A stretch of 64,000 nt of DNA from Escherichia coli phage Shin27: sequence record LC788709.1; one strand, given 5' to 3'. Under the pieces are notes generated by a model. That model saw nothing but the letters and a program-made list of their open reading frames with translations, was not told the DNA's origin and ran no database searches. Shown piece after piece: positions 27,301 to 38,492 of the stretch. Every line of letters begins with the position of its first letter. The first letter of the stretch is position 1. The position numbers were made by a program, and so were the translations under genes.

Positions 27301-27413
27301 GTTAGCGCTAATTACCAATTCTCGAAATCTCATAAGATTACACATGAAGGTGTGCCCAGAGGTTACCTAGATGAGAATGAGTCTCATTACCGCCCCGGTA
27401 CTTAGCAAGCTAA

Positions 27414-27457
27414 TAGTCACACTATGTGATGATAACATAGTGTGACTATTTTATTTT
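27414..27457 (+). terminator. Rho-independent terminator ending the small-membrane-protein operon
   Basis: A perfect 13-bp stem, TAGTCACACTATG/CATAGTGTGACTA, is followed by TTTTATTTTT. It lies tail-to-tail with dmp. Confidence 0.8.
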
Positions 27458-27463
27458 TAATTG

Positions 27464-28198
27464 TTAGGCGACTTTTAATTTATCAATGAATTGTTGCGGG
27501 CTGCAACTATATTCTGCGCGTTCTTCCTCGGTCATACCTTCCCAACACATTTTTAAACGGTCGGCTAGGAATTGATAATCATTATCATCATCTAATGATT
27601 CATCAATAAAGGTTTCACCGATCAATGTTACGCCGATTGATAGGATATCATTAACGGCTTGAGCGTCCAGCGTTTTAAATCCAGCACTTGCCGCCGCCGA
27701 TAATACGCCTTTATGATCATCAATCATCGTAAAATCAGCGTTCGGATATAACTGTTTAAACAGTTCAAAGTAATAGCTTTTGTATACAGCGTCTTTACTA
27801 TGATATATTTCGCTAACCTTATCCGCTTCAAAGTATTTGTGTAATGTATCGCGAGAGAATACGCGGATATTGCTATTTCCGCGCCCTCGCAAGCCTTGTT
27901 TACGCAAATAAAAGTAATCGCTTTTAGACATAAGGCGCGCGGTACAAATAATATTTAAAGTATTTGCATCATTCATACATTGGCGCATATATTCAACCAA
28001 TGGCAATAAAGAATCCTGCATAATTAAATCATGTTTACAGGCTTCGCGTGAATACTTATTTAAATTTAAATTCCCGTTATCATCAAAGCAAGGCGCTACA
28101 CGGTGGAAAGAATTAATGATAGTTCCGTCTAAGTCCCAAATCATAACGCGGGAAATATGCGGGAAAGCGCGGGCAATATTCAAGGTTACTTGATTCAT
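27464..28198 (-). CDS. dmp: 5'-deoxyribonucleotidase (T5 Dmp-like, HAD family)
   Basis: 244-aa ORF with the HAD motif I (IWDLDGTIINS). It sits in the pre-early position next to A1. Confidence 0.8.
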   Translation of the reverse strand: MNQVTLNIARAFPHISRVMIWDLDGTIINSFHRVAPCFDDNGNLNLNKYSREACKHDLIMQDSLLPLVEYMRQCMNDANTLNIICTARLMSKSDYFYLRKQGLRGRGNSNIRVFSRDTLHKYFEADKVSEIYHSKDAVYKSYYFELFKQLYPNADFTMIDDHKGVLSAAASAGFKTLDAQAVNDILSIGVTLIGETFIDESLDDDNDYQFLADRLKMCWEGMTEEERAEYSCSPQQFIDKLKVA

Positions 28199-28285
28199 TT
28201 GTTACATTCTCCATTTAAGGGATTTAGGTTAATTCAATCTTGCCAGCTAATTATATTGGATTAGCTGGCAATGTTCAATTAACTA

Positions 28286-28678
28286 TTAATTAGTGAGGCC
28301 ATACGCTAGCGCGTCACCAATAAAGCTAATATCTTCACCATGTACGCTAGAACGAATCCCCGCGCAAGTGTAAACCATCGCGCTAGCTTCTGGATTGCAG
28401 ACCGGACACGGCTTAACAACTGCAAACGCTAGACCGGATTTAAGCGCATCAATAATAATTGTTTGCACTGTCAAAGTATCAGCGTAAACGCCTTTTGCTT
28501 TCGTATGGCTTGCCACTTTGCCGGTATCATAAGCAAAGGTAGTAACCTGCAAAGCGTCGTTATAATTCAGCAAATCAAAATTAACTTGCCCCGCCTCGAC
28601 GTGATAACGTTCACCATTAGAATAAACTAGAACGATGGAAGAAGTAGCACGATCAAAAGGAATGTTTTGGTTTTTCAT
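28286..28678 (-). CDS. hypothetical pre-early protein
   Basis: 130-aa ORF flanked by GC hairpins. No motif was recognised. Confidence 0.55.
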   Translation of the reverse strand: MKNQNIPFDRATSSIVLVYSNGERYHVEAGQVNFDLLNYNDALQVTTFAYDTGKVASHTKAKGVYADTLTVQTIIIDALKSGLAFAVVKPCPVCNPEASAMVYTCAGIRSSVHGEDISFIGDALAYGLTN

Positions 28679-28710
28679 GTTTATGACTCCAGATTATTTA
28701 ATTACGGGAT

Positions 28711-28989
28711 TTATTGAAAAAATACATTTAAAGATAAATCAGTTTTACGAAAATATGTTTCGTCGCCGTCTTTCCTTTCTTGATTAAGGTAATCGCCTGT
28801 CATTACCTGAATATGATCTTTTTCGAAAAAGATCATATTTTCGCCAATATTACTATCCCATACGGCATACATTCCCGCGTACATTCCACGGGTAACTAAA
28901 TAAACGCAACTATCAAAAGACATTTCAGACCATGCAATATCTTCTAAACAATTGCTATCAGGGATAGATATATTAATTTTACTAGCCAT
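28711..28989 (-). CDS. hypothetical pre-early protein
   Basis: 92-aa ORF between A1 and the 130-aa ORF. Confidence 0.5.
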   Translation of the reverse strand: MASKINISIPDSNCLEDIAWSEMSFDSCVYLVTRGMYAGMYAVWDSNIGENMIFFEKDHIQVMTGDYLNQERKDGDETYFRKTDLSLNVFFQ

Positions 28990-29041
28990 TTAATAAACCT
29001 TTTATTAATGGCGGTATATTTCAACCGCCGATTAAATTTAA

Positions 29042-30706
29042 TTATGCAAAGAATTTACCGTTTTTGAAATCAATCAAAGTACGTTGCCCGTTTGCATAGG
29101 TAATTAAATGCGTTTGCGTCCAGCTTGACGCGCCCACGTTGTAGCCCATATCAAGGGAACCAGCAACGCCAGCGGTATAAACGCCGCCGTAAATGCTAGC
29201 CGTGTGAGTGTGACCAGTGTTAAGGCGTCCCAACTTTTTAAACTGCTTAGGATTGCCCCGACTGCCGTTAATGCCATTGTGACCATGTACGCCGCATTCA
29301 ATGCCAGCGATTTTAAAGGACTGGTCAGTAGTCAAAAAAATGGCGTTAAATTCGCATCCTGCAACGTTTCTAAGCGCATAATCTAACACGTTAAAGGTAT
29401 CATCCTTTTCAGCAATAGCGGCGTAAATCGCAGCGTTTAGACGGTGATACAGTTCCGCGTTTGCGGGATCATCTTTAATGTTTGCGTTACGATCATCTAA
29501 CCAGCGGGATAATGCTAAATCATGGTTAGATTCCACAATGATTGTTTGACTAAAATCACGTTCCATAGATTCTAATACGCGTCCAGTATCGATAAGATCA
29601 TCAATAACTTTATCACGTCCGGCGGCGTATTGTTTCGCAAGGAATACACCACTAGCGCGGTTATGATGGTTACGCGATGTAAAATCATGCACGTCATGAA
29701 TAAATTGATATTTCGGTTTAAGAATATCAAGCAAGCTGTTTTCACTAGCCCATGAAGCGACGGCGCAATCATCATCTAATTTTTCGGCGTGAATATCGCC
29801 ATATTGCAAGCCTAGAACATGATCGGACGTTTCAAAACATCCGGTAGGCATAGCGCAAACATTCAAATCATAGAACATTCCGCTTTCATCCATTGTTTCA
29901 ATCTGGCGAGCATAAAATTCGCCGTCGTCGTCGAACTCTACCAGCAAAGCGCCATAATTATGTAAAGCCTCAGCTTTTTGACCTGCTTTCTGCTGAATGT
30001 AGTTTTTAAGCGTAGCCGTTCCGGTTGAATACATACGGCACACTACTTCACCTTTTAACGCTGGCACACTTTCAGCGGTAATTTTAGCGTGACCAATTGC
30101 CAGACCTTCAATATTTAAAGCCGTGGCGGTTTCTGCGAATCCTGAAAGCGGGTAATCTGCCGTTGGTAAAACGTTAATTTCAGCCATGAAAGCAAAGCGG
30201 CGGTTATTTAAAAATACGTTTTTATCACAAACATATTTATCAAATGCGGGATCGTATTTAATACCGTTTGCCCCTTCCCCGTTCTGAAATCCGTTTTTGT
30301 TGTAAATGAATTTGCTAACAAGTAATTCAGCGCCGCAATATTCAGCGAATTTTTCCAGACTTGCTAAAAAGTTTTTATGCGGGAAAGTATTATTTTGAAT
30401 CGACGTTAGAATAAAACGGCGACCGGACTTAACTTCCCATTGCTCAACGGTGCTAGAAACAATTCCCGCCGCCTCTGGGCGATCATCGTTTTTAATCGCC
30501 TTTTCGGCTTTTGCCGCTTTCGGTTTCGCTGGTTTATTTGCTTCCAGCCAGTCACAAATTGCGGTCGAATGTTTCGGCGTACCATAAACAGCTTTTGAAA
30601 TATCGTCGCAAACTTCCAATTTAGTAGCGCGTAAACGCTTACCGTAGAAGTTAAAATCTGCGGCCATTTTCAAAATTTGAGCTTGTTTTTCTGCGGAAAT
30701 ATTCAT
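29042..30706 (-). CDS. A1: pre-early protein A1 (metallophosphoesterase/Mre11-like fold)
   Basis: 554-aa ORF with calcineurin-like motifs in order: GDIHAE, IHDVHD, ESNHD, GVHGHNG, GHTHT. Size and position match T5 A1. Confidence 0.85.
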   Translation of the reverse strand: MNISAEKQAQILKMAADFNFYGKRLRATKLEVCDDISKAVYGTPKHSTAICDWLEANKPAKPKAAKAEKAIKNDDRPEAAGIVSSTVEQWEVKSGRRFILTSIQNNTFPHKNFLASLEKFAEYCGAELLVSKFIYNKNGFQNGEGANGIKYDPAFDKYVCDKNVFLNNRRFAFMAEINVLPTADYPLSGFAETATALNIEGLAIGHAKITAESVPALKGEVVCRMYSTGTATLKNYIQQKAGQKAEALHNYGALLVEFDDDGEFYARQIETMDESGMFYDLNVCAMPTGCFETSDHVLGLQYGDIHAEKLDDDCAVASWASENSLLDILKPKYQFIHDVHDFTSRNHHNRASGVFLAKQYAAGRDKVIDDLIDTGRVLESMERDFSQTIIVESNHDLALSRWLDDRNANIKDDPANAELYHRLNAAIYAAIAEKDDTFNVLDYALRNVAGCEFNAIFLTTDQSFKIAGIECGVHGHNGINGSRGNPKQFKKLGRLNTGHTHTASIYGGVYTAGVAGSLDMGYNVGASSWTQTHLITYANGQRTLIDFKNGKFFA

Positions 30707-30814
30707 AACTAAATCAACTCCTATAAAGGGATAAATATTAATACTGGCAATATTGCCAAATATAACGCCTTGCCTGAAGTGAGGACAATTTAAAAGGCGT
30801 TATAATTTGCAATA

Positions 30815-31060
30815 TTATTCTAGAATTGGCATAAGACTAGAACTAAAACCGCAACTAATAGCCAGCGTTAAAAATATAATCGCTAGATATTTTTGTTTAT
30901 TAGCTTGACGTTTAAACATATCAGCGGCATAAGCTGAATTAATGCCGATAATAGAGATTATATATTTGCCGTAATTAAATATAAATATAGCGGCAACTAT
31001 AAATAAACCTAAAATAAACGCTTCACTAGGGAAGAAAATCATTTTAATAACTCCGGTCAA
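30815..31060 (-). CDS. small membrane protein
   Basis: 81-aa ORF with two or three hydrophobic segments, located between A2 and A1. Confidence 0.45.
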   Translation of the reverse strand: MTGVIKMIFFPSEAFILGLFIVAAIFIFNYGKYIISIIGINSAYAADMFKRQANKQKYLAIIFLTLAISCGFSSSLMPILE

Positions 31061-31100
31061 AGGGAAATTATAGCGGGGAATATTCCCCGCTAATTAGAAT

Positions 31101-31517
31101 TTATTCACCTGCGGCCTGTTTTACTTCCTCCGCTACGCCTAACAATTGCGCTACGGCGTCCAGCGTTTCCAGTTTAGCACTTTCAAGGCTTGCCAGATCG
31201 TCGGCATCTTTTACGATACCTGAATCAATGGCGTGTTTAGCGATGACGCGCACATAGTGAGCTTTACGAATTGAGCTACCGCCGCCAACTTTGCGAGGTT
31301 TATCGCTTTTCTGATAGGCTTTTGCGCTTGTCAGTTTAGAACGTACAGACACCGGACTAGCAGCACCAACGGCGGCGGCAATTTCTTTCAGGCCGTCACT
31401 GTTAGCAAATTCACTTCCGCTTTTAGCGACCATTTCAGAATACATAGAAACAGCTTTTTCGGTGTTTTCTTCGTTCCAAGAGAATTTTGCGGTTTTTTCG
31501 GTTTTAACGTTAGACAT
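31101..31517 (-). CDS. A2: pre-early protein A2-like (probable DNA-binding)
   Basis: 138-aa ORF immediately upstream of A1 in the transcription direction. Assignment rests on recalled T5 order and size only. Confidence 0.6.
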   Translation of the reverse strand: MSNVKTEKTAKFSWNEENTEKAVSMYSEMVAKSGSEFANSDGLKEIAAAVGAASPVSVRSKLTSAKAYQKSDKPRKVGGGSSIRKAHYVRVIAKHAIDSGIVKDADDLASLESAKLETLDAVAQLLGVAEEVKQAAGE

Positions 31518-31805
31518 AATTTAATACTCCATTCAATTATTAATTAAGGGATTATGATTAACTAAATGTTAATCGCTATATATTCTATTAGCTAGAATAT
31601 ATATAACGGAAACATTTTATTTTTATTTCCAGTTTCAAGCGGTTTATTAATTCCCGAATATATTTATATTCTCACCTTACCCGGCTTGCCAGAGAATTAA
31701 TAAGGCAACATTGTATTTATACGCTGTTTATTATTCCGTTCACGCTAGGAATATTTCGAGTTATCTTTATTGCCTAACTAAGCATGATATGTAAGGCGCA
31801 TTAAT

Positions 31806-32057
31806 TTATGCGATAGCTTGCCATTTATCATCTTTCTGAATGATTTTTACAACGTCGCCAGATTTAACACGGACGTTATAAATAGGCTTGCCGTGGTTAC
31901 TGCGTTCCGTTTCCGCATAGACCGCTTCAATCTTATCAAAGGGATCAAGCGCCGCACCTTTAATACGTTCAGCTTTTCCAGTTAATTCATCCGTTTTAGT
32001 AACGAAAGGAATAAAAACGGATTGACCTACTTTCGGTGCGGTGATAACGTTTTGCAT
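31806..32057 (-). CDS. hypothetical pre-early protein
   Basis: 83-aa ORF with GGAG-type SD context (CCGGAGTATTAAAAATG on the coding strand). Confidence 0.5.
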   Translation of the reverse strand: MQNVITAPKVGQSVFIPFVTKTDELTGKAERIKGAALDPFDKIEAVYAETERSNHGKPIYNVRVKSGDVVKIIQKDDKWQAIA

Positions 32058-32191
32058 TTTTAATACTCCGGTTTATTGGGGGATTATTCCACAATAGCGC
32101 CTCGATACTTTGAAACGCTATTAGATTATAATCCGCTAGGAGTTAGCCTAAACATTACCGTTTTTCCAAATTGTTAAAGAGCAGTTACTAC

Positions 32192-32489
32192 GGGGAACAT
32201 CTTAAAACCTATCGGCTAGCGTGTCAATCGTTTTTTAAACTTTTTTCGATTTGATGGGAGTTATATAAATCAATCATTATATTACGCCACACCATTTCCA
32301 GCCCTTGTTGCTTGCCTTTCTTGTATTGCTTGAATCTGTATTTTACAGATCGTTGCGCTACTGTCAACAAATTTTTTGTTCTGCTATCAAGCGACTTGAT
32401 AGGCTTGCCAGTGATCAAAAGCGTTTGTTTCATATCGTCGATTCCTTATAATATCTAAGTTTACCGCCGATAGGCTTTAAGATGTTCCC
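32192..32489. repeat. 24/25-bp inverted repeat pair flanking a 69-aa ORF
   Basis: GGGGAACATCTTAAAACCTATCGGC (32192-32216) versus GCCGATAGGCTTTAAGATGTTCCC (32466-32489), with one mismatch. Confidence 0.8.
32224..32433 (-). CDS. small basic protein flanked by 24-bp inverted repeats
   Basis: 69-aa Lys/Arg-rich ORF (RSVKYRFKQYKKGKQQ). The inverted repeats lie at 32192-32216 and 32466-32489. Confidence 0.4.
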   Translation of the reverse strand: MKQTLLITGKPIKSLDSRTKNLLTVAQRSVKYRFKQYKKGKQQGLEMVWRNIMIDLYNSHQIEKSLKND

Positions 32490-32840
32490 TAATTTTTAAA
32501 GAGCATGGCAGGGTTTTGAAAGGTCAAACAGACTGTCAATCGCTGTTATCCCCGCCGTGTAGTTCGTCATTGCCGCCCTACGTGATAAATAATAGGAGAA
32601 TACCGAGAAGGGCGCAAGCGTATTTTTGTAAAGAAACGTAAAGAAAACCACTACTCGCAAACGTCCAGCGGCGCATTAAATTTAATGAAACGGGCGCGCG
32701 AATAACACCAAAACAACCATTTTAGCAAGTAATTTTTTTCATTTATATTTGCTTTGCCATACTTGACAAAATCTAAAATCCTCGTGGTGAGGTTTTCTCG
32801 GTGTATCCCTTATGATTGCCTATCCTTTCCTTTGAGGCGC

Positions 32841-32867
32841 TTAGAATGCGTTACAGAGCGTTTTAGA
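32841..32867 (+). repeat. 27-bp perfect direct repeat, copy 1
   Basis: TTAGAATGCGTTACAGAGCGTTTTAGA is also present at 37084-37110. Confidence 0.85.
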
Positions 32868-33246
32868 CCCTGTTAATAACTTATACAAAAAGCAAAAATG
32901 AAATTTAATGAGTTATCCACTTGATTTTTCAAAAAAGTATTTTCTGCTGTTATTTTTCATTGACAAATAAGTTTAGACGTGCATTTATTGGTTAGCAGAC
33001 TAATAATCGCTAGGAGGATAATCACGCTGGTGGATTGTAACAGCCGAAACAGTTAGCGGACTATTAATACTTTAAAAACCTATTAGCCAACTAACTATTT
33101 CATAATATATAATATACACATAAATTAATGAGAAATAATAACTATGAGAAACTATCGGGCTAAGTGAGAACCACTATCATTTAGGTTATGCACAAAGCTA
33201 TCCACAGCACAAAATAACTTGACGCAATAGGCGACGTTTTGGCGAC

Positions 33247-33255
33247 TTATCCACA
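33247..33255 (+). promoter_or_regulatory. DnaA box (perfect TTATCCACA)
   Basis: Exact 9-mer. Near-matches are CTATCCACA at 33198-33206 and TTATCCACT at 32913-32921. Confidence 0.6.
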
Positions 33256-33275
33256 GACTTATATACAGGTTATCC

Positions 33276-33295
33276 TACTGTATAAATATACAGGG
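33276..33295. promoter_or_regulatory. LexA (SOS) box-like palindrome
   Basis: TACTGTATAAATATACAGGG has the CTGT-N8-ACAG core and is AT-rich, adjacent to DnaA boxes. Confidence 0.55.
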
Positions 33296-33543
33296 TAGAA
33301 TGGTAGCAGTAACAACCGCAATCAAATTTAAGCGGCCTAGAACGCGCTACACGGCGTTTTCTCACTGCTACCCTTATTATAATAAAGCCTTGTGTACGCT
33401 TACAGAGAGCTAGAAATAGAAAACGCGCGATTATCATAAAAACGGGCAGTAGGCAAGGAATAAAAAACCTTTTCTTTTTTTCTTGCCCCTAGCGAACAAT
33501 TATCTATATCATTCACTCACCGATTAACGAGGGAGACAAAGAA

Positions 33544-34545
33544 ATGTCTACTGTAAGAATTGCAGTACCAGCAAACGCAACTATTATTAAAGGTAGTTTG
33601 CGCAACCTGCTAGATGGTAGTAGTGCGGCAAGTATTCAGCACACCGCCGCAATGGTTGAAAAAATTCACGAGGATATTTTAGATAATAATGATACTCATT
33701 ATTCAGTCGATGATTTCACGCTATTACTAGACCAGACAAGGGCGCTAGTAATTTTCAACCGTGATTATCACATTTTCCGTAATAGTCAGGGAACTGATAT
33801 TGATTTTATCATTGTTGGTTATAGTGAGTCTCATAGTGGTTACATTGCGCGATTATATAACGTGCAAGAAAAAGAGCAGGTAACAGCAACAAAAGTAAAT
33901 AATATCAGATTGGATAGTGTCGGATCGTTATTAAATAGTATCTGGCGTGAATTATCATCCAGTTATAAAGGTGCTGATAGTGACGCAATCGAAACAACTG
34001 GCGTATTGTGCTTTGAACGCGCTAGCGGTAACATGTTGATCCCTAACGATTATTTAGAGTATGGGAATGAATCAAACGTTGCAAACGCTGGATTTACACT
34101 TTTACCGCTTGACAATGTAGCAAAACAGGCTGTAAACTCTCAAACTTCAAGCGCAAATGCGCAAACTACTGAAAATAAAGGAAATATTATGTCTAAAGTA
34201 TCTTCTATCGTTGCCGCTAATAAATCCGCCGTTGTTAACGCTGCTAAACTGGAAGCGGGTAAAATTGCACTGACTCAAATCACAAAAGTAGCGGCGAAAA
34301 AAGCGCCGTTTATGATTAAAGGTTATATCGATACGCCGATCGGTCGCGTAGTGATCGCTAACCTGTTAAGCGTAGCGGTTGACCAGTACGCCCCGACTAA
34401 TGCGAAAGCGAAAGCGGTAGCAGGCGCGGCAATGGAAGCGGCAATGCTGGAAATGGTACAGAGTTTCAATATTGCGGAAATGATCGATGAAATGGTAAAA
34501 GGTATTGACATTTCTACTTTTACCACTAACACCGAAAGTGAGTAG
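33544..34545 (+). CDS. hypothetical pre-early protein (largest gene of plus-strand cassette)
   Basis: 333-aa ORF with a GAGGGAG SD 8 nt upstream. The C-terminal third is an Ala/Lys-rich amphipathic region. A hairpin follows the stop. Confidence 0.65.
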   Translation: MSTVRIAVPANATIIKGSLRNLLDGSSAASIQHTAAMVEKIHEDILDNNDTHYSVDDFTLLLDQTRALVIFNRDYHIFRNSQGTDIDFIIVGYSESHSGYIARLYNVQEKEQVTATKVNNIRLDSVGSLLNSIWRELSSSYKGADSDAIETTGVLCFERASGNMLIPNDYLEYGNESNVANAGFTLLPLDNVAKQAVNSQTSSANAQTTENKGNIMSKVSSIVAANKSAVVNAAKLEAGKIALTQITKVAAKKAPFMIKGYIDTPIGRVVIANLLSVAVDQYAPTNAKAKAVAGAAMEAAMLEMVQSFNIAEMIDEMVKGIDISTFTTNTESE

Positions 34546-34612
34546 TAATAACTAGCGGGGATTATTTCCCCGCGTTACTATTTCCCTGTTAATTGTTAGG
34601 AGACTACTTATT

Positions 34613-34921
34613 ATGCAACTGAATCAAATCATGTTGACGCAATTAGCCGAAAAAATGCCGAATAGCCCCCATGTTAATTATTCGGACGATCAAAGCAATA
34701 TTCCTATATGGGAAAAACAAGGCCGTCCCTTTTTATGGGAACATGTAGAAAGCGCGAATAATTATCATGCTTTCTTTGATCGTGGTTATGGCTGGCTATG
34801 TATTTTTGTAGACGAAACTTTGCTGGATTATGGAATGGATGAAATAGTCCGTGATGACGTAATTTTCTTAAATAAAGGATTTTACAGTGTAGCAAATTCT
34901 CTTTATTTCCCTGCTAATTAA
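34613..34921 (+). CDS. hypothetical protein
   Basis: 102-aa ORF with a TAGGAG SD. Confidence 0.55.
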   Translation: MQLNQIMLTQLAEKMPNSPHVNYSDDQSNIPIWEKQGRPFLWEHVESANNYHAFFDRGYGWLCIFVDETLLDYGMDEIVRDDVIFLNKGFYSVANSLYFPAN

Positions 34922-34934
34922 TAGGAGGCTAGTT

Positions 34935-35429
34935 ATGTCAGAAGAAAAATATGGCTTTTCACTAGAAAGTGTGAATGAAGCTAAACACGATATGATAGTT
35001 TTAGTTGATTGTCATACTGGCTATTGCGGGGAAGGCTGGACGGAGGAACATTTTGTTCCCGCTGGCTGTGATCTGGACGCTTTCGCAAACGAACACGCAT
35101 ATGATAATGCTTCTCGTTTCGGTAGTGATGGGGAAGAAGATGAAGAAACAGGGGAATGGATTGAAAATGATAATGTTTATGCGAGTATTTATCATTATCA
35201 ATTGAGTAAATCCGGTATTTATGTAAATGGCGGCGATCCTATTAATACCGTTATGAAACTAATTATTAAACACGGTGGCGCGGAAATAATTGGTAACAAG
35301 GCGTTATTATATGCAAATCGATTAAAACAGCTTGTTTATATTCCTGATAATTCCCGTTGGGATGAATATGCCGTTTTACAGAAAGAACTAAAACGCTGTT
35401 TCGGTGTGGAAGCATTAGAAATAGTCTAA
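34935..35429 (+). CDS. hypothetical acidic protein
   Basis: 164-aa ORF with a TAGGAGG SD and an acidic tract (GSDGEEDEETGEWIENDN). A terminator follows. Confidence 0.6.
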   Translation: MSEEKYGFSLESVNEAKHDMIVLVDCHTGYCGEGWTEEHFVPAGCDLDAFANEHAYDNASRFGSDGEEDEETGEWIENDNVYASIYHYQLSKSGIYVNGGDPINTVMKLIIKHGGAEIIGNKALLYANRLKQLVYIPDNSRWDEYAVLQKELKRCFGVEALEIV

Positions 35430-35443
35430 TGTAAAGTTTTGTA

Positions 35444-35472
35444 AAGGTCGCCTATTATGGCGACCTTTTTTG
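35444..35472 (+). terminator. Rho-independent terminator
   Basis: AAGGTCGCC-TATTAT-GGCGACCTT followed by TTTTGTT. Confidence 0.75.
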
Positions 35473-35479
35473 TTATAAT
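35471..35479 (+). promoter_or_regulatory. possible extended -10 promoter
   Basis: TGTTATAAT lies immediately after the terminator at 35444-35472. No good -35 is present. Confidence 0.3.
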
Positions 35480-35536
35480 GCCTTTACACCGAAACGGTGG
35501 GTTGAAAATTTTCCCTGATTTCTAGGAGGCGTTAAA

Positions 35537-35764
35537 ATGGTACATTCATCATCTTCTGCAATTTTTAACGGTATGGAATGGGTATCCGTTCCCGCTATTG
35601 TCAGCGTTATGGTTTCTGAGTTCGGCATAGGTAAAACTTATGTTACCATTCAGGGGCTTTACGACAATGACAAGATTGACCAGCAAACCGCCGGATTTTT
35701 GCTGGATGAATTGAAAGCTAACCATTGCACTAAAAAGCAAGCGGCAAAAATTGTTTTAATGTAA
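35537..35764 (+). CDS. hypothetical protein
   Basis: 75-aa ORF with a TAGGAGG SD. Confidence 0.5.
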   Translation: MVHSSSSAIFNGMEWVSVPAIVSVMVSEFGIGKTYVTIQGLYDNDKIDQQTAGFLLDELKANHCTKKQAAKIVLM

Positions 35765-35810
35765 TTAATAAAGGGGGTATATTATCCCCTAATTTCTAGG
35801 AGCTAATAAA

Positions 35811-35960
35811 ATGGTTATTTTTCGATCTATTCTAGCTAGTATCTTGGGCGCTATTTTATCACTGTTTGTAATAGCTTTCGGCGTTAACGTGGTTATTATT
35901 GGAGCAGGTATCGCTGGGTTTTCTTACTTGTTAGGCTGTATGACTGGTAAAGGGGAATAA
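35811..35960 (+). CDS. small double-pass membrane protein (49 aa)
   Basis: MVIFRSILASILGAILSLFVIAFGVNVVIIGAGIAGFSYLLGC... with a TAGGAG SD. It is below the ORF-track cutoff. Confidence 0.4.
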   Translation: MVIFRSILASILGAILSLFVIAFGVNVVIIGAGIAGFSYLLGCMTGKGE

Positions 35961-35962
35961 AA

Positions 35963-36175
35963 ATGTTAAAGAATGTTTCCCTTGCCCGTTCTAAAGGTTT
36001 TAAGCTGGTGGATGTTAACACGTTCGAGCGTCCAGATTGTAAAATCGAATATGTAGCACGCAACAAAAACGCTTTCCGTGTTACTGAAAAGAAATTTGAC
36101 AAGCGCGGAAATTTGGTAGCCGAAACGGTTAAACACTTTGCTACTTTTTACGCTGCGTTTCGTGGGGTATTATGA
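35963..36175 (+). CDS. hypothetical basic protein
   Basis: 70-aa ORF that starts 2 nt after the preceding stop. Confidence 0.5.
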   Translation: MLKNVSLARSKGFKLVDVNTFERPDCKIEYVARNKNAFRVTEKKFDKRGNLVAETVKHFATFYAAFRGVL

Positions 36176-36273
36176 GATCCTTATATATTGCTCTAGCGTT
36201 TGCTACCGTTGGCGTTGTTTGCTCATTCGCTGCATTTGTTCTAAAAATGTACCTGATATTTTCCCAGCTTTAG
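36172..36273 (+). CDS. small membrane peptide (33 aa)
   Basis: MRSLYIALAFATVGVVCSFAAFVL... It has an ATGA start/stop overlap with the upstream ORF. Confidence 0.3.
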   Translation: MRSLYIALAFATVGVVCSFAAFVLKMYLIFSQL

Positions 36274-36284
36274 GAGCTTGACAA

Positions 36285-36632
36285 ATGGTTATTTATGAGG
36301 GTAATCGCTTTGTTACTAATTGCCGTCCGGCATTATTAGCAAACTATTTAAATCAGCTTTCCCCTGTTTATAAAGGCGTGGTTAACATCTATGAAGGCAA
36401 AGCGCACTATAGAATTAATGCCGTTGTCGCTCGCGAGCTTGCCTTTCAGTTTCTTACTTTTAACTCATGCGATATTCAGGTTATGGGTGAGTCTTTGATT
36501 GCAGAAAATGAAGATGAATTTATTAACATTTTCCGCAAAGTATGTACAGAGCGCCTGATTATGAAAGGCGCATATATTCAATCAACCGCTGATAGTATTG
36601 AAACAGCGTTTCGAAAAATTGTAAATGAATAG
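36285..36632 (+). CDS. hypothetical protein
   Basis: 115-aa ORF with a TAGGAG SD. Confidence 0.55.
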   Translation: MVIYEGNRFVTNCRPALLANYLNQLSPVYKGVVNIYEGKAHYRINAVVARELAFQFLTFNSCDIQVMGESLIAENEDEFINIFRKVCTERLIMKGAYIQSTADSIETAFRKIVNE

Positions 36633-36755
36633 CTGGTGGCGTAAAACGCAATCCCATAAATCTAATAATACCGCTGGGAAACATTCCCAGCGTTTACGAT
36701 TTGGGAACGGCTTCACAATGTTAATAATAATCATTCTCATTCTAGGAGCAATGGC

Positions 36756-36995
36756 ATGGCTGTAAGAATTTTACGATATGTAGAACGTAAAGAAACCGAT
36801 ATTATGCAGCATCATTTAACTGATGGGCAATACGCGCAATTTTTAGAAATGCAGAAAAGCGGAGCTAGTACGGCGGCGCTAGGGGCGTGGATCAATTCAG
36901 TTTCAACGTGTACGCATTTTGATTCATACGGGTATACGCCAGCCGAAACCGTCCAGATCTTTGACGACTACGAGAAGGAATACATAGCAGACTAA
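36756..36995 (+). CDS. hypothetical protein (last gene of cassette)
   Basis: 79-aa ORF with a TAGGAG SD. An AATCATTCTCATT operator-like half-site lies at 36729-36741 and a terminator at 37001-37031. Confidence 0.5.
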   Translation: MAVRILRYVERKETDIMQHHLTDGQYAQFLEMQKSGASTAALGAWINSVSTCTHFDSYGYTPAETVQIFDDYEKEYIAD

Positions 36996-37000
36996 TAATA

Positions 37001-37031
37001 GCGGGGCGCAACTATCGGCCCCGCCTTTTCT
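37001..37031 (+). terminator. Rho-independent terminator at the end of the plus-strand cassette
   Basis: GCGGGGC-N10-GCCCCGC followed by CTTTTCT. Confidence 0.65.
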
Positions 37032-37083
37032 GCCTGCAAACAAATTTCCCCTTATTAAAATACCTCCTCCAAAAATAAACGCG

Positions 37084-37110
37084 TTAGAATGCGTTACAGA
37101 GCGTTTTAGA
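37084..37110 (+). repeat. 27-bp perfect direct repeat, copy 2
   Basis: Identical to 32841-32867. It lies 31 nt upstream of the near-consensus LexA box. Confidence 0.85.
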
Positions 37111-37140
37111 GCTATATTAGAGTTATTCACTACGTAGGAA

Positions 37141-37160
37141 TACTGTATATTTATACAGTA
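37141..37160. promoter_or_regulatory. LexA (SOS) box, near-consensus
   Basis: TACTGTATATTTATACAGTA differs at one position from the E. coli consensus TACTGTATATATATACAGTA. Confidence 0.65.
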
Positions 37161-37168
37161 GAATAACC

Positions 37169-37177
37169 TGTGGATAA
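37169..37177 (-). promoter_or_regulatory. DnaA box (perfect, reverse orientation)
   Basis: The plus strand reads TGTGGATAA. An 8/9 box, AGTGGATAA, lies at 37181-37189. Confidence 0.6.
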
Positions 37178-37241
37178 GTCAGTGGATAACGCCTCAAAAT
37201 CGCTAGGATTTTGTCAAGTCAAATCGTGCTGTTAATAAACC

Positions 37242-37250
37242 TGTGGATAA
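37242..37250 (-). promoter_or_regulatory. DnaA box (perfect, reverse orientation)
   Basis: The plus strand reads TGTGGATAA. Confidence 0.6.
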
Positions 37251-37283
37251 CTTAAATAGCAGTGTTTCTCACTTCGCTTTCTA

Positions 37284-37413
37284 AATGCGAATCATTCTCA
37301 TTATGCGACTCATTCGTATTCAATTCTGTAAATGATAATCATTCCCATTCCACTTTCTAAATGCGAGTAGTTCTCATTCGCATTCAACTTCTCAAATGCG
37401 AATCAATCTCATT
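37284..37413. repeat. five copies of a 19-bp imperfect palindrome (AATGCGAAT-N-ATTCTCATT family)
   Basis: Copies lie at 37284-37302, 37303-37320 (degenerate), 37331-37349, 37360-37378 and 37395-37413. A lone half-site lies at 36729-36741. Confidence 0.75.
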
Positions 37414-37432
37414 ATCAGTTGCATTTCGGCAG

Positions 37433-37463
37433 GCAGGGCATTTTCTATTTGCCCTGCGCTTTT
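37433..37463 (+). terminator. terminator-like hairpin inside the repeat region
   Basis: GCAGGGC-N11-GCCCTGC followed by GCTTTT. Confidence 0.4.
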
Positions 37464-38065
37464 GTGCAAATCCGACATCTGCCCCCACGGATTACGTGCC
37501 AGCGTGCATGTGCGAATCCGACAATTTTTGGTAGTGTGCAAATCCGATGGGAAATATTTTTTATATGTGCGAATCCGACAATGAATTTTCCTAAAAACTC
37601 CAGCAATCCGCAACTGCGATGCAATCCAGCTGGATTTACTAGAGTATGCGCAAATCCGACATGAGTTTATTTGTGCAAAACCGACAAGATTTTTGTGACT
37701 TCGATGAGAGGGTGTGTGATTGTGAGGGTTTGGGGAGAAGTGCGAATCCGATGAGATTTTGGGAGGAACTACGGAAGGAGCAGCGGTGATGGTGCTTTAG
37801 CACCGGTTTGCTGCATTTTTGAGGATAATGCGGGATGTTTTGGCTAGAATTGAGATTAGGGGAGATAAAGCGAAATTTTATTAGCAAAATGGGGCAAAAT
37901 CGCTTGACAAGTGAAAATTCCTGTGGCTCTAAAAAACTCAGGCAAATATGGGCCTTCGGCCCGAAATAATGCTGCTATTTTCAGTGTTCCTAAAAACTTT
38001 GGAGACTCCTATCAATGTGCAAATCCGACCATAAATTTCTAGAAACACAGTGTGCAAATCCGATA
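37464..38065 (+). repeat. iteron-like array: nine same-orientation copies of GTGC(A/G)AATCCGA(C/T)N
   Basis: Copies start at 37464, 37510, 37536, 37567, 37648 (variant), 37673 (variant), 37740, 38017 and 38052. Spacing is irregular and no ORF is supported. Confidence 0.85.
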
Positions 38066-38224
38066 GCAATTTCCAGAAATGTGTTTTGGAAAAATGTCTC
38101 CTAGAAATAACCGCCCTCCCTATAACCGCCCTGTATTAAACCGCCTATTGCTGGAGTTTCTAGGAACATGAAAACCGCCTGAGTTGGCGAGAGTTTTCCT
38201 AGAAACTTAGGAGTCTACTAGAAA
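38036..38224. repeat. six TTCTAGAA-type palindromes interleaved with four (T/A)AACCGCC(C)T direct repeats
   Basis: The TAG-centred sites lie at 38036-45, 38071-80 (degenerate), 38098-107, 38157-66, 38195-205 and 38214-24. The AACCGCC repeats lie at 38108, 38123, 38137 and 38171. Confidence 0.75.
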
Positions 38225-38492
38225 GTGTTGTGCTATCCTAGCAGATGAGCGGCAACAGGTGTATCATCTTGAACATTAATTTATCTATTCAACAGTATTA
38301 GTTTTTATATAAGTATAAGATCCCCAGGGGATTGTGAGAGATGCTCCACCCCTGGGATACGAATTGCGTGAGATGGTACAAAACTTCTGAAGATTTCCCT
38401 AGCCCTCCGACAAGCTACGGGGGAAATAGAAGTTTCCCATCCACCATCCGTATCCGGGTGGATCTCTTTATTCTATGTTATTTCATAGAGTT

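What the first reader, a model, noticed from the sequence alone, without database searches (positions are those of the whole stretch)
33544..36995. Ten-gene plus-strand pre-early cassette of unknown function, a candidate anti-defence locus
Seen: ten ORFs (333, 102, 164, 75, 49, 70, 33, 115 and 79 aa among them) almost all have TAGGAG-type SDs. The cassette has internal terminators and runs opposite to dmp/A1/A2. One product is strongly acidic (GSDGEEDEETGEWIENDN), three are tiny membrane peptides, and the 333-aa protein has a long amphipathic Ala/Lys tail. Established: T5 pre-early products shut off host functions and neutralise restriction-type defences, and most are uncharacterised. Inference: this cassette is the likeliest home for inhibitors of host nucleases or immune systems. 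The acidic protein could be a DNA mimic.
Basis: inference. Interest (0 to 1): 0.6.

Follow-up and report, generated by a model that had tools for sequence, protein, structure and literature searches.

The report
T5-like phage pre-early host-takeover operon
This is the rightward first-injected ("pre-early") operon of a T5-like Salmonella/E. coli phage: half its genes match phage T5 genes 011-015, three of which are known to poison the host, and the other half are unstudied add-on genes, so it is a known kind of locus and not a demonstrated anti-defence island.

Summary
Ten plus-strand ORFs at 33544-36995 are real genes (dN well below dS). They have strong Shine-Dalgarno sites or overlapping, coupled starts, two internal hairpin terminators and one terminal hairpin. 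The phage is an Epseptimavirus; ORF1 is 100% identical to E. coli phage Shin27. The cassette is the right arm of its first-step-transfer DNA.

"Unknown function" is only half true. ORF1, 4, 5, 6 and 8 are orthologues of T5 genes 011-015. In T5, 011 (nucleoid disorganisation), 013 (membrane damage) and 015 (Ung-dependent AP-site nickase) are toxic to the host. A viable T5 multi-deletion mutant lacks the whole right arm.

ORF2, 3, 7, 9 and 10 are patchily distributed accessory genes. ORF2+ORF3 is a ~0.9-kb insertion between the gene-011 stop codon and its ancestral terminator.

The acidic ORF3 is a confidently folded alpha/beta protein with no PDB relative. Its acidic loop is replaced by a zinc ribbon in relatives, but strong negative charge is conserved across the family. 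An anti-defence role is possible for the accessory genes but has no direct support, and Epseptimaviruses are restriction-sensitive.

By-products: databases label the 70-aa ORF6 as the Ung-dependent nickase, but the evidence points to the 115-aa ORF8. ORF1 also carries a conserved internal promoter-like site.

The parts
33483..33512 (+). Sigma-70 promoter of the rightward pre-early operon (-35 TTGCCC, 18-nt spacer, -10 TATCAT)
   Evidence: Found by the promoter scan. It aligns with the annotated promoter upstream of T5 gene 011 (NC_005859 6411-6489), with near-identity from the -10 to the start codon in T5, EPS7 and Seafire. Annor et al. 2026 state that the T5 promoter upstream of 011 was characterised experimentally.
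33544..34545 (+). ORF1, 333 aa: orthologue of T5 gene 011 (DUF7566). It has a fast-evolving globular N-domain (1-188), a disordered S/T/N/Q linker (190-215) and a very conserved Ala-rich helical C-domain (216-333).
   Evidence: Pfam DUF7566 E 1.9e-140 and phrog_4263. 57% identical to T5.011. AF2 pLDDT is about 90 for the N-domain and under 50 for the linker. Against T5, the N-domain has dN 0.59; the C-domain has dN 0.038, dS 0.88 and dN/dS 0.04. No fold match in the PDB. T5 011 is toxic and disorganises the nucleoid.
34109..34191 (+). Candidate internal promoter (TTGACA-N18-TAAACT, 34109-34138), then an SD-like AAAGGA and the in-frame ATG of Met216 (34189). Together these could express the conserved 118-aa C-domain separately.
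   Evidence: TTGACA-N18-TAnnnT is kept in 10 of 11 homologues even though the encoded residues change. Only 6 exact sites of this form occur in the 64-kb window. Expression is inferred and untested.
34555..34573 (+). Hairpin after ORF1 (GCGGGGA-TTATT-TCCCCGC). It marks the left edge of the ORF2-ORF3 insertion and is a weak terminator.
   Evidence: -15.3 kcal/mol, z -4.45. It is absent at this position in T5 and Seafire.
34613..34921 (+). ORF2, 102 aa, acidic (pI 4.49). Accessory gene of unknown function (phrog_16959).
   Evidence: Present in only 81 phage records, with a 45%-identical copy in the Tequintavirus DaisyDussoix and faint hits in jumbo phages. Absent from T5, Seafire, phiR2-01 and EscoHU1. 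Only 2 protein clusters in the 5.8-billion-sequence database.
34935..35429 (+). ORF3, 164 aa, acidic (net -17). Accessory gene of unknown function (phrog_6741) with a compact alpha/beta fold.
35443..35478 (+). Rho-independent terminator (10-bp stem plus TTTTTT), immediately followed by an extended -10-like TGTTATAAT.
   Evidence: -17.6 kcal/mol, z -5.7. The same element directly follows gene 011 in T5 (annotated terminator 7534-7559) and in Seafire. ORF2-ORF3 were therefore inserted upstream of it. Promoter function of TGTTATAAT is inferred.
35537..35764 (+). ORF4, 75 aa: orthologue of T5 gene 012. Function unknown; not toxic in T5 studies.
   Evidence: 72% identical to T5.012. Present in 9 of 9 compared loci. 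dN/dS 0.10. Not toxic.
35811..35960 (+). ORF5, 49 aa: two-TM membrane peptide, orthologue of T5 gene 013.
   Evidence: 62% identical to T5.013, with a 10-residue loop deletion. Hydropathy. In Annor et al. 2026, expression of T5 013 caused lysis-like loss of cell integrity.
35963..36175 (+). ORF6, 70 aa, basic (pI 10.1): orthologue of T5 gene 014. It is the most conserved protein of the arm. Function unknown. PHROGs and RefSeq label it 'endonuclease nicking abasic sites', apparently in error.
   Evidence: 93% identical to T5.014 and 91-100% across all 9 loci; dN/dS 0.06. For the labelling problem.
36172..36273 (+). ORF7, 33 aa: hydrophobic peptide whose start overlaps the ORF6 stop (ATGA). Accessory.
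   Evidence: Conserved in S126, S114 and EscoHU1 with dN 0.014 and dS 0.24. Seafire and IrisVonRoten have a different 41-aa membrane peptide in the same slot. T5 has nothing there.
36285..36632 (+). ORF8, 115 aa: orthologue of T5 gene 015, the Ung-dependent AP-site nickase.
   Evidence: 88% identical to T5.015. Lys85, Lys94 and Lys111 are conserved; these are the residues mutated in the published non-toxic 015 K85A/K94A/K111A mutant. Pfam PF26847 'Phage_T5_AP_Endonuclease' hits the 115-aa orthologue in locus L010. dN/dS 0.06.
36625..36765 (+). ORF9, 46 aa: basic N-terminus plus a C-terminal TM anchor. It overlaps ORF8 and ORF10. Accessory.
   Evidence: Similar sequence is found in 7 of 9 loci and is annotated as a CDS in IrisVonRoten. 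dN 0.054 and dS 0.43.
36756..36995 (+). ORF10, 79 aa, acidic (pI 4.8). Accessory gene of unknown function (phrog_12351).
   Evidence: Present in 90 phage records and 5 of 9 loci. dN/dS about 0.1-0.16. T5 has no counterpart and carries 016/017 at this position.
37001..37031 (+). Terminal hairpin (GCGGGGC...GCCCCGC followed by CTTTTCT). It closes the operon just before the DnaA-box and GTGCRAATCCGA repeats of the injection-stop region.
   Evidence: -16 kcal/mol, z -2.0. T5 has an annotated terminator in the equivalent position after 017.

Best explanation
The region is the rightward transcription unit of the first-step-transfer (pre-early) DNA of an Epseptimavirus, a T5-like phage. ORF1 is 100% identical to E. 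coli phage Shin27, and the region is about 94% identical at DNA level to Salmonella phage S126.

Host RNA polymerase reads it from a conserved sigma-70 promoter in front of ORF1 as soon as the first ~8-9% of the genome enters the cell. A terminator/promoter junction after ORF3 divides it into two blocks, and a hairpin ends it just before the injection-stop repeats.

Its backbone is orthologous to T5 genes 011-015 and acts on the host:
- ORF8 (015) binds host uracil-DNA glycosylase and nicks the abasic sites it creates. This damages dUMP-containing host DNA and stops replication and division.
- ORF1 (011) is a toxic two-domain protein that disorganises the nucleoid.
- ORF5 (013) is a two-TM peptide that compromises the membrane.
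- ORF4 (012) and ORF6 (014) are conserved, non-toxic and of unknown role.

Five small accessory genes (ORF2, 3, 7, 9, 10) sit in insertion hot spots of this backbone and differ from phage to phage. By analogy with other first-expressed accessory genes they probably tune host interaction, possibly including counter-defence, but nothing yet shows which.

Shown here: the anatomy, the orthology and the purifying selection. Taken from T5 papers: the functions of 011, 013 and 015. Inferred: early timing in this particular phage and any role for the accessory genes.
For: Identity and synteny: megablast finds 518 T5-like records, and annotated relatives place the cassette between A2/hdi and the injection stop signal, inside the terminal repeat. 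dmp, A1, A2, 007 and hdi are on the minus strand at 27.5-32.4 kb.

Orthology to T5 011-015 at 57-93% identity. The promoter is conserved with T5. The terminator is shared with T5 and Seafire, which shows that ORF2-3 is an insertion.

Purifying selection acts on all ten ORFs. ORF8 keeps K85, K94 and K111, and its orthologue hits PF26847.

Published phenotypes: 011 and 015 are toxic (PMC8201957). 011, 013 and 015 are toxic, and a viable T5 mutant lacks hegG-017 (bioRxiv 10.64898/2026.04.02.716235). [quoted passage not shown]

Accessory genes are mosaic in distribution: 81, 338 and 90 phage records for ORF2, ORF3 and ORF10, plus the presence/absence matrix.
Against: No experiment has been done on this phage or on any Epseptimavirus cassette; all functions are transferred from T5.

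ORF1 shares only about 35-40% identity with T5 011 in its N-domain (dN 0.59), so its target could differ.

Toxicity on over-expression does not prove a physiological takeover role.

Half the genes (ORF2, 3, 7, 9, 10) and the conserved ORF4 and ORF6 have no assigned function, so 'host takeover' describes only part of the cassette.

The T5 right arm was deleted only in a phage that also lacked most left-arm genes. That mutant made smaller plaques, so the arm is not neutral.
Confidence: 0.7

Rival explanations
1. One reading: the cassette is chiefly an anti-defence island. One or more of its small acidic products (ORF2, ORF3, ORF10) inhibit host nucleases or immune systems, and ORF3 acts as a DNA mimic that titrates a DNA-binding restriction or defence protein before the rest of the genome enters.
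For: The genes are on the first DNA to enter and have strong SD sites. ORF2, ORF3 and ORF10 are acidic (pI 4.5-4.8). They are patchily distributed and sit in insertion hot spots, as known counter-defence genes do.

Strong negative charge is conserved in the ORF3 family (net -10 to -33 in 35 of 37 sequences; the two outliers are short fragments) despite low sequence identity. The ORF3 fold has no solved relative, so a new inhibitor class is not excluded.

The first-step-transfer DNA is depleted of R-M sites: EcoRI 0 of 11, EcoRV 1 of 25, Esp1396I 0 of 17, CAGCAG 2 of 78. That is the pattern expected if the protection for the remaining DNA is encoded there.

The literature attributes restriction, CRISPR and RecBCD protection in T5 to unidentified pre-early genes. 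Epseptimaviruses resist Eco29kI and Esp1396I despite having sites.

Against: The quoted acidic stretch is a variable loop that other members replace with a zinc ribbon.

Epseptimaviruses, which carry these genes, are more R-M-sensitive than Tequintaviruses, most of which lack ORF2 and ORF10.

Acidity is common among small early phage proteins. The characterised orthologues in the cassette are host-damaging and do not block defences.
Confidence: 0.25
2. The small membrane peptides (ORF5, ORF7, ORF9), and perhaps the conserved C-domain of ORF1, act at the inner membrane. They would control the two-step DNA transfer or exclude superinfecting phage, and would not be there to kill the host or block immunity.
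For: The cassette holds three hydrophobic peptides. A membrane-peptide slot between 014 and 015 is filled by different peptides in different phages. The cassette abuts the injection-stop region with its DnaA boxes. T5 013 affects membrane integrity.
Against: In T5 only A1 and A2 are needed for second-step transfer, and a phage lacking hegG-017 is viable. The ORF1 C-domain has no TM-grade hydrophobic segment (maximum hydropathy 1.33) and no raised amphipathic moment. There are no data on superinfection exclusion.
Confidence: 0.12
3. ORF7 (33 aa) and ORF9 (46 aa) are not genes. They would be chance reading frames in spacer or overlap sequence, so the cassette would have eight genes.
For: They are very short. 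Neither has a PHROG family. ORF9 has no SD and ORF7 has only a weak one. Both are missing from T5.
Against: Both frames stay open in relatives with dN well below dS: ORF7 0.014 against 0.24, ORF9 0.054 against 0.43. The starts overlap upstream stop codons in the way coupled genes do. Other annotators call equivalents as CDS. Both have a clear TM-like segment.
Confidence: 0.12

Closest known systems
Phage T5 right-arm pre-early genes 011-017 (NC_005859 6495-9157)
   Same: Same position between the divergent pre-early promoters and the injection stop signal. Same promoter and same terminator after the first block. Orthologues of 011, 012, 013, 014 and 015 in the same order.
   Different: The window lacks hegG, 016 and 017. 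It has ORF2+ORF3 inserted after 011, a 33-aa peptide between 014 and 015, and ORF9 and ORF10 after 015. The N-domain of ORF1 is highly diverged.
T5.015, the Ung-dependent AP-site nickase (Mahata et al. 2021, PMC8201957; Pfam PF26847)
   Same: ORF8 is 88% identical, the same length, and keeps K85, K94 and K111. Its orthologue in L010 hits PF26847.
   Different: Nothing significant at sequence level. Activity and Ung binding are untested for this protein. Databases attach the name to the neighbouring 70-aa protein.
T7 Ocr (gp0.3) and ArdA-type DNA-mimic anti-restriction proteins, and anti-defence genes in plasmid leading regions
   Same: These are small acidic proteins encoded on the first DNA to enter and expressed before the rest of the genome is exposed. 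ORF3 (and ORF2 and ORF10) share the acidity and the 'first in' position.
   Different: No sequence or fold similarity. ORF3 is a two-part alpha/beta protein with a basic-to-neutral C-terminal half (pI 8.75), not an all-acidic helical DNA-shaped dimer. Its acidic loop is interchangeable with a zinc ribbon. No anti-restriction phenotype is known, and the genus is R-M-sensitive.
Accessory-gene or 'moron' slots of lytic phages (hot spots between conserved early genes)
   Same: The ORF2-3 block is bounded by its own hairpin and the ancestral terminator. The slot between 014 and 015 and the slot after 015 hold different small genes in different phages.
   Different: These slots lie within terminally repeated first-step-transfer DNA, so they are duplicated in the virion genome and are expressed before the bulk of the genome arrives.

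Membership tests
T5-like pre-early (first-step-transfer) right-arm operon | Lies between the A2/007/hdi divergent promoter region and the injection-stop repeat region, on the strand opposite dmp/A1/A2 | tested here: met
   dmp, A1, A2, 007 and hdi are on the minus strand at 27467-32433. DnaA-box and GTGCRAATCCGA repeats lie at 37.1-38.1 kb. S114 carries an annotated 'DNA injection stop signal' just downstream.
T5-like pre-early (first-step-transfer) right-arm operon | Orthologues of T5 genes 011-015 in conserved order | tested here: met
   BLASTP identities of 57, 72, 62, 93 and 88% with collinear order.
T5-like pre-early (first-step-transfer) right-arm operon | Conserved pre-early promoter upstream of gene 011 | tested here: met
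   Alignment with the annotated T5 promoter; the -10 to ATG stretch is nearly invariant.
T5-like pre-early (first-step-transfer) right-arm operon | Located inside the long terminal direct repeat | tested here: inconclusive
   Relatives (T5, Seafire, phiR2-01, EscoHU1) have the cassette inside annotated terminal repeats. The window holds a single copy, so the repeat boundaries of this genome cannot be seen.
T5-like pre-early (first-step-transfer) right-arm operon | Expressed in the first minutes, before second-step transfer | not testable with these tools
   Transcript and protein data exist only for the Tequintavirus Bas33 (PMC13250531).
T5.015 AP-endonuclease family (PF26847) | Full-length sequence similarity to T5.015 (114 aa) | tested here: met
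   ORF8 is 88% identical over 112 residues, E 4e-75. PF26847 hits the 115-aa orthologue in L010. The local Pfam copy lacks this model (no hit).
T5.015 AP-endonuclease family (PF26847) | Lysines 85, 94 and 111, which are needed for toxicity | tested here: met
   K85, K94 and K111 are present in both T5.015 and ORF8. The mutant is described in PMC8201957.
T5.015 AP-endonuclease family (PF26847) | Binds Ung and nicks AP sites | not testable with these tools
   Needs a biochemical assay.
DUF7566 / T5 gene 011 family | Full-length match to the Pfam DUF7566 model | tested here: met
   E 1.9e-140 over residues 1-333 against model positions 1-336. 336 homologues carry the same domain.
DNA N6-adenine methyltransferase (a UniRef name given to ORF1 homologues) | Methyltransferase domain or Rossmann-type fold | tested here: not met
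DNA-mimic anti-restriction proteins (Ocr, ArdA, Arn and similar) - considered for ORF3 | Strongly acidic protein | tested here: met
   pI 4.55 and net charge -17, with the N-terminal half at pI 4.05. Acidity is conserved across the family.
DNA-mimic anti-restriction proteins (Ocr, ArdA, Arn and similar) - considered for ORF3 | Sequence or fold membership in a known mimic family | tested here: not met
DNA-mimic anti-restriction proteins (Ocr, ArdA, Arn and similar) - considered for ORF3 | Conserved acidic surface arranged like the DNA backbone | tested here: inconclusive
   The most acidic stretch is a variable loop, replaced by a zinc ribbon in many members, although total charge is conserved.
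DNA-mimic anti-restriction proteins (Ocr, ArdA, Arn and similar) - considered for ORF3 | Inhibits a DNA-binding defence enzyme | not testable with these tools
   Needs genetics or biochemistry.
Known anti-phage defence proteins (PADLOC) | HMM match | tested here: not met
   No family hit for any of the ten proteins.

The most novel reading that the evidence does not exclude
The ORF3 family may be a new class of early-expressed inhibitor. It is a rare, phage-restricted, uniformly very acidic alpha/beta protein family with an interchangeable acidic-loop or zinc-ribbon insert and no solved structural relative. It would work by binding, possibly by nucleic-acid mimicry, a basic DNA-binding host nuclease or defence protein during the window before second-step transfer. 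It may work together with ORF2, which was inserted with it. A second unconventional element: gene 011/ORF1 may hold a nested gene. A conserved internal promoter and start codon could express its ultra-conserved C-terminal 118 residues separately.
Probability: 0.15. Interest if true: 0.6.

Novelty: already known. Interest (0 to 1): 0.3.

Why it matters
T5-like phages are used for Salmonella and E. coli biocontrol, and their first-injected genes decide whether an infection takes hold. This analysis shows that the cassette is the known T5 011-015 takeover arm plus exchangeable accessory slots. That narrows any search for counter-defence genes to five small genes: ORF2, 3, 7, 9 and 10. It also flags an annotation error that now labels the wrong protein as the Ung-dependent nickase in PHROGs and many RefSeq phage genomes. 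[quoted passage not shown]

Tried and rejected
Homology searches:
- Pfam, PHROGs, NCBIfam and PADLOC scans of all ten proteins returned only DUF7566 and unnamed PHROGs. The one named PHROG is the mislabelled phrog_4227.
- PDB sequence searches for ORF2, 6, 8 and 10 and for the ORF3 profile found nothing.
- Rfam found no RNA family in 32.0-38.6 kb.

Structure:
- The AFDB50 fold library was not available.

Deeper homology:
- The exhaustive profile search for ORF3 found only 32 representatives. None has an informative domain apart from a zinc ribbon.
- The ORF2 homology search found only 2 clusters.

Literature:
- JSS1_004 looked like a possible pre-early anti-Dnd gene but belongs to a T7-like phage.
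- The accessory-gene screens of Silas et al. and a machine-learning anti-defence preprint contain nothing on T5-like pre-early genes.
- Davison's 2015 review is not held.

Rejected readings:
- The 'DNA N6-adenine methyltransferase' name for ORF1 homologues is unsupported.
- The 'amphipathic' description of the ORF1 tail is not borne out by the hydrophobic moment.

Full report
WHAT THE WINDOW IS.
Megablast of 33000-37500 finds 518 phage records, nearly all T5-like (Demerecviridae, Markadamsvirinae). The best is Salmonella phage S126 (Epseptimavirus) at 94% identity over 100% of the query. ORF1 is 100% identical to a protein of E. coli phage Shin27. Annotated relatives place this stretch between the A2 DNA-binding-protein gene and the 'DNA injection stop signal', and inside the long terminal repeat. 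In the window, dmp (27467-28198), A1 (29045-30706), A2 (31104-31496), 007 and hdi/008 (to 32433) lie on the minus strand. DnaA-box-like and GTGCRAATCCGA repeats typical of the injection-stop region follow at 37.1-38.1 kb. The finding is therefore the right arm of the first-step-transfer (pre-early) DNA of an Epseptimavirus.

CHECK OF THE OBSERVATION.
All ten ORFs are present at the stated coordinates.
- Six have an exact TAGGAG upstream. ORF1 and ORF6 have other purine-rich SD sites. ORF7 and ORF9 start inside the stop region of the preceding gene.
- Two internal hairpins, at 34555-34573 and 35443-35468, fold far better than shuffled sequence (z -4.5 and -5.7). A third hairpin at 37001-37024 closes the operon.
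- ORF3 has pI 4.55 and net charge -17, and it contains the quoted acidic motif. ORF5, ORF7 and ORF9 are hydrophobic peptides.
- The ORF1 tail is Ala-rich (19%) and predicted helical, but its hydrophobic moment is not raised. 'Amphipathic' is therefore unproven.
- Every ORF, including the 33- and 46-aa ones, has dN well below dS against relatives. They are real genes and not chance frames.

WHAT THE GENES ARE.
BLASTP against the T5 reference gives ORF1 = 011 (57%), ORF4 = 012 (72%), ORF5 = 013 (62%), ORF6 = 014 (93%) and ORF8 = 015 (88%). ORF2, 3, 7, 9 and 10 have no T5 counterpart, and T5's hegG, 016 and 017 are absent from the window.

The promoter in front of ORF1 (TTGCCC-18-TATCAT, 33483-33512) aligns with the annotated T5 promoter upstream of 011. 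Annor et al. list that promoter as experimentally characterised.

The strong terminator at 35443-35468, with the TGTTATAAT that follows it, is the same element that directly follows gene 011 in T5 and Seafire. ORF2+ORF3, preceded by their own hairpin, are therefore a ~0.9-kb insertion between the 011 stop codon and its ancestral terminator.

A matrix over nine related loci shows 012, 014 and 015 in 9 of 9, and 011 and 013 in 8 of 9. The accessory genes are less regular: ORF2 in 4, ORF3 in 5, ORF7 in 3, ORF9 in 7 and ORF10 in 5. Across 50,697 phage records, ORF2 occurs in 81, ORF3 in 338 (including Klebsiella T5-like phages) and ORF10 in 90. In Seafire and IrisVonRoten, the slot between 014 and 015 holds a different 41-aa membrane peptide.

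WHAT IS KNOWN EXPERIMENTALLY (from papers).
- Mahata et al. 2021 (PMC8201957) cloned 13 T5 pre-early genes. They found 008, 011 and 015 toxic. They showed that 015 binds Ung and nicks the abasic sites it makes, which arrests replication and division.
- Annor et al. 2026 (bioRxiv 10.64898/2026.04.02.716235) found dmp, A1, hdi, hegG, 011, 013 and 015 toxic. 011 disturbs nucleoid organisation and 013 causes lysis-like damage. [quoted passage not shown] A phage lacking hegG-017, together with most left-arm genes, is viable with small plaques. They note that the dispensable genes might matter in hosts with defence systems.
- Transcription and proteomics of the Tequintavirus Bas33 arrested after first-step transfer show expression restricted to the pre-early genes (PMC13250531).
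[quoted passage not shown] Epseptimaviruses were generally sensitive, with the exception of Eco29kI and Esp1396I (PMC10644984).

ORF3, THE 'DNA MIMIC' CANDIDATE.
Only 18 clusters in 5.8 billion proteins, and 32 representatives in an exhaustive 1.84-billion-protein profile search, belong to this family. All are 45-261 aa and without known domains, apart from a zinc ribbon in some.

The quoted acidic stretch lies in a variable loop, and many relatives replace it with a CxxC...CxxC zinc ribbon. Overall acidity is nevertheless conserved: net charge -10 to -33 in 35 of 37 members, the two outliers being 45- and 50-aa fragments.

So ORF3 is a folded, strongly acidic protein of a rare phage-only family. 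It is compatible with an inhibitor that binds a basic partner, but it is not a member of any known mimic family, and its function is unknown.

ORF1.

Against T5, the N-domain is highly diverged (dN 0.59). The C-domain is almost invariant at the protein level although its synonymous sites have diverged (dS 0.88, dN/dS 0.04). This is a variable head on a strongly constrained tail.

Within the linker, a TTGACA-N18-TAnnnT promoter-like site (34109-34138) is kept in 10 of 11 homologues even though the encoded amino acids change. It is followed by AAAGGA and the in-frame Met216 codon. This suggests separate expression of the conserved 118-aa C-domain. It would also fit the report that wild-type 011 could not be cloned while a synonymously recoded copy could. 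This is an inference and has not been shown.

AN ANNOTATION ERROR FOUND ON THE WAY.
PHROGs (phrog_4227) and RefSeq give the name 'endonuclease nicking abasic sites generated by host uracil glycosylase Ung' to the 70-aa protein, which is T5.014 and ORF6 here. The published non-toxic mutant is 015 K85A/K94A/K111A, which cannot exist in a 70-residue protein. T5.015 (114 aa) and ORF8 both have Lys at positions 85, 94 and 111. Pfam PF26847 'Phage_T5_AP_Endonuclease' hits the 115-aa orthologue in locus L010. ORF8 is therefore the nickase orthologue, and ORF6 is a very conserved basic protein of unknown function.

MECHANISM AND RIVALS.
Best-supported reading (confidence 0.7): this is a host-takeover operon read by host RNA polymerase from the first DNA to enter. 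Its conserved backbone damages host DNA (ORF8 with Ung), the nucleoid (ORF1) and the membrane (ORF5). Five exchangeable accessory genes of unknown role sit in it.

[quoted passage not shown] Against it are the lack of any homology or fold link to known inhibitors and the R-M sensitivity of this genus.

Two lesser alternatives each carry about 0.12. One is a membrane or DNA-entry or exclusion role for the small peptides. The other is that ORF7 and ORF9 are not genes.

NOVELTY AND SCORE.
The locus is present, annotated mostly as hypothetical proteins, in hundreds of deposited genomes. Its T5 counterpart has been dissected by expression and deletion. It is therefore already known as a kind of locus, and it is not a demonstrated anti-defence island. 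What remains open is the function of ORF2, 3, 4, 6, 7, 9 and 10 and the possible nested gene in ORF1. Interest is 0.3.

Noticed in passing
window 35963-36175 (ORF6) and 36285-36632 (ORF8); T5 NC_005859 8086-8298 and 8300-8644: PHROGs phrog_4227 and RefSeq name the 70-aa protein (T5.014/ORF6) as the Ung-dependent AP-site endonuclease. The published K85A/K94A/K111A mutant, the lysines at those positions, and Pfam PF26847 all point to the neighbouring 114/115-aa protein (T5.015/ORF8). This looks like an off-by-one annotation error that has spread to many phage genomes.
   Followed up: yes
window 34109-34191, inside ORF1: Exact TTGACA-N18-TAAACT promoter-like site, followed by AAAGGA and the in-frame Met216 codon at the start of the ultra-conserved C-domain. 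The -35/-10 geometry is kept in 10 of 11 homologues although the encoded residues vary. [quoted passage not shown]
   Followed up: partly
window 27301-38300 (first-step-transfer DNA) compared with the rest of the window: The first-injected DNA is depleted of common enterobacterial restriction and defence motifs. It is 17% of the window but holds EcoRI 0 of 11, EcoRV 1 of 25, Esp1396I 0 of 17, EcoKI 0 of 4, CAGCAG (EcoP15I) 2 of 78 and GGTAAG (BREX) 2 of 34 sites. Palindromic hexamers have O/E 0.80 there against 0.94 elsewhere.
   Followed up: partly
window 32434-33543: About 1.1 kb between the divergent pre-early arms has no credible ORF. T5 carries the homing endonuclease gene hegG at this position. 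The stretch contains three TTATCCAC DnaA-box-like sequences (near 32915, 33200, 33250) and several promoter-like sites.
   Followed up: no
window 37130-38330: Non-coding injection-stop region. It has three inverted DnaA-box-like CTGTGGATAA copies (37169-37255), a palindrome TACTGTATATTTATACAGTA (37142-37161) and about nine copies of GTGCRAATCCGA (37464-38062). Most short ORFs listed here are probably not genes.
   Followed up: no
ORF1 homologues in UniRef (for example P0026, P0028, P0110): Many are named 'DNA N-6-adenine methyltransferase'. No methyltransferase domain or fold was found, so the name seems to be a propagated error, apparently from one phage record (STG2).
   Followed up: yes
locus L007 (Escherichia phage IrisVonRoten, Bas32), 1415-2611: This Tequintavirus has no detectable gene 011 homologue, although it keeps 012-015. 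Gene 011 can therefore be lost naturally.
   Followed up: no
window 35472-35478: TGTTATAAT, an extended -10 consensus, sits directly after the terminator stem-loop and is conserved in T5 and Seafire. It is a possible restart promoter for the 012-015 block.
   Followed up: partly
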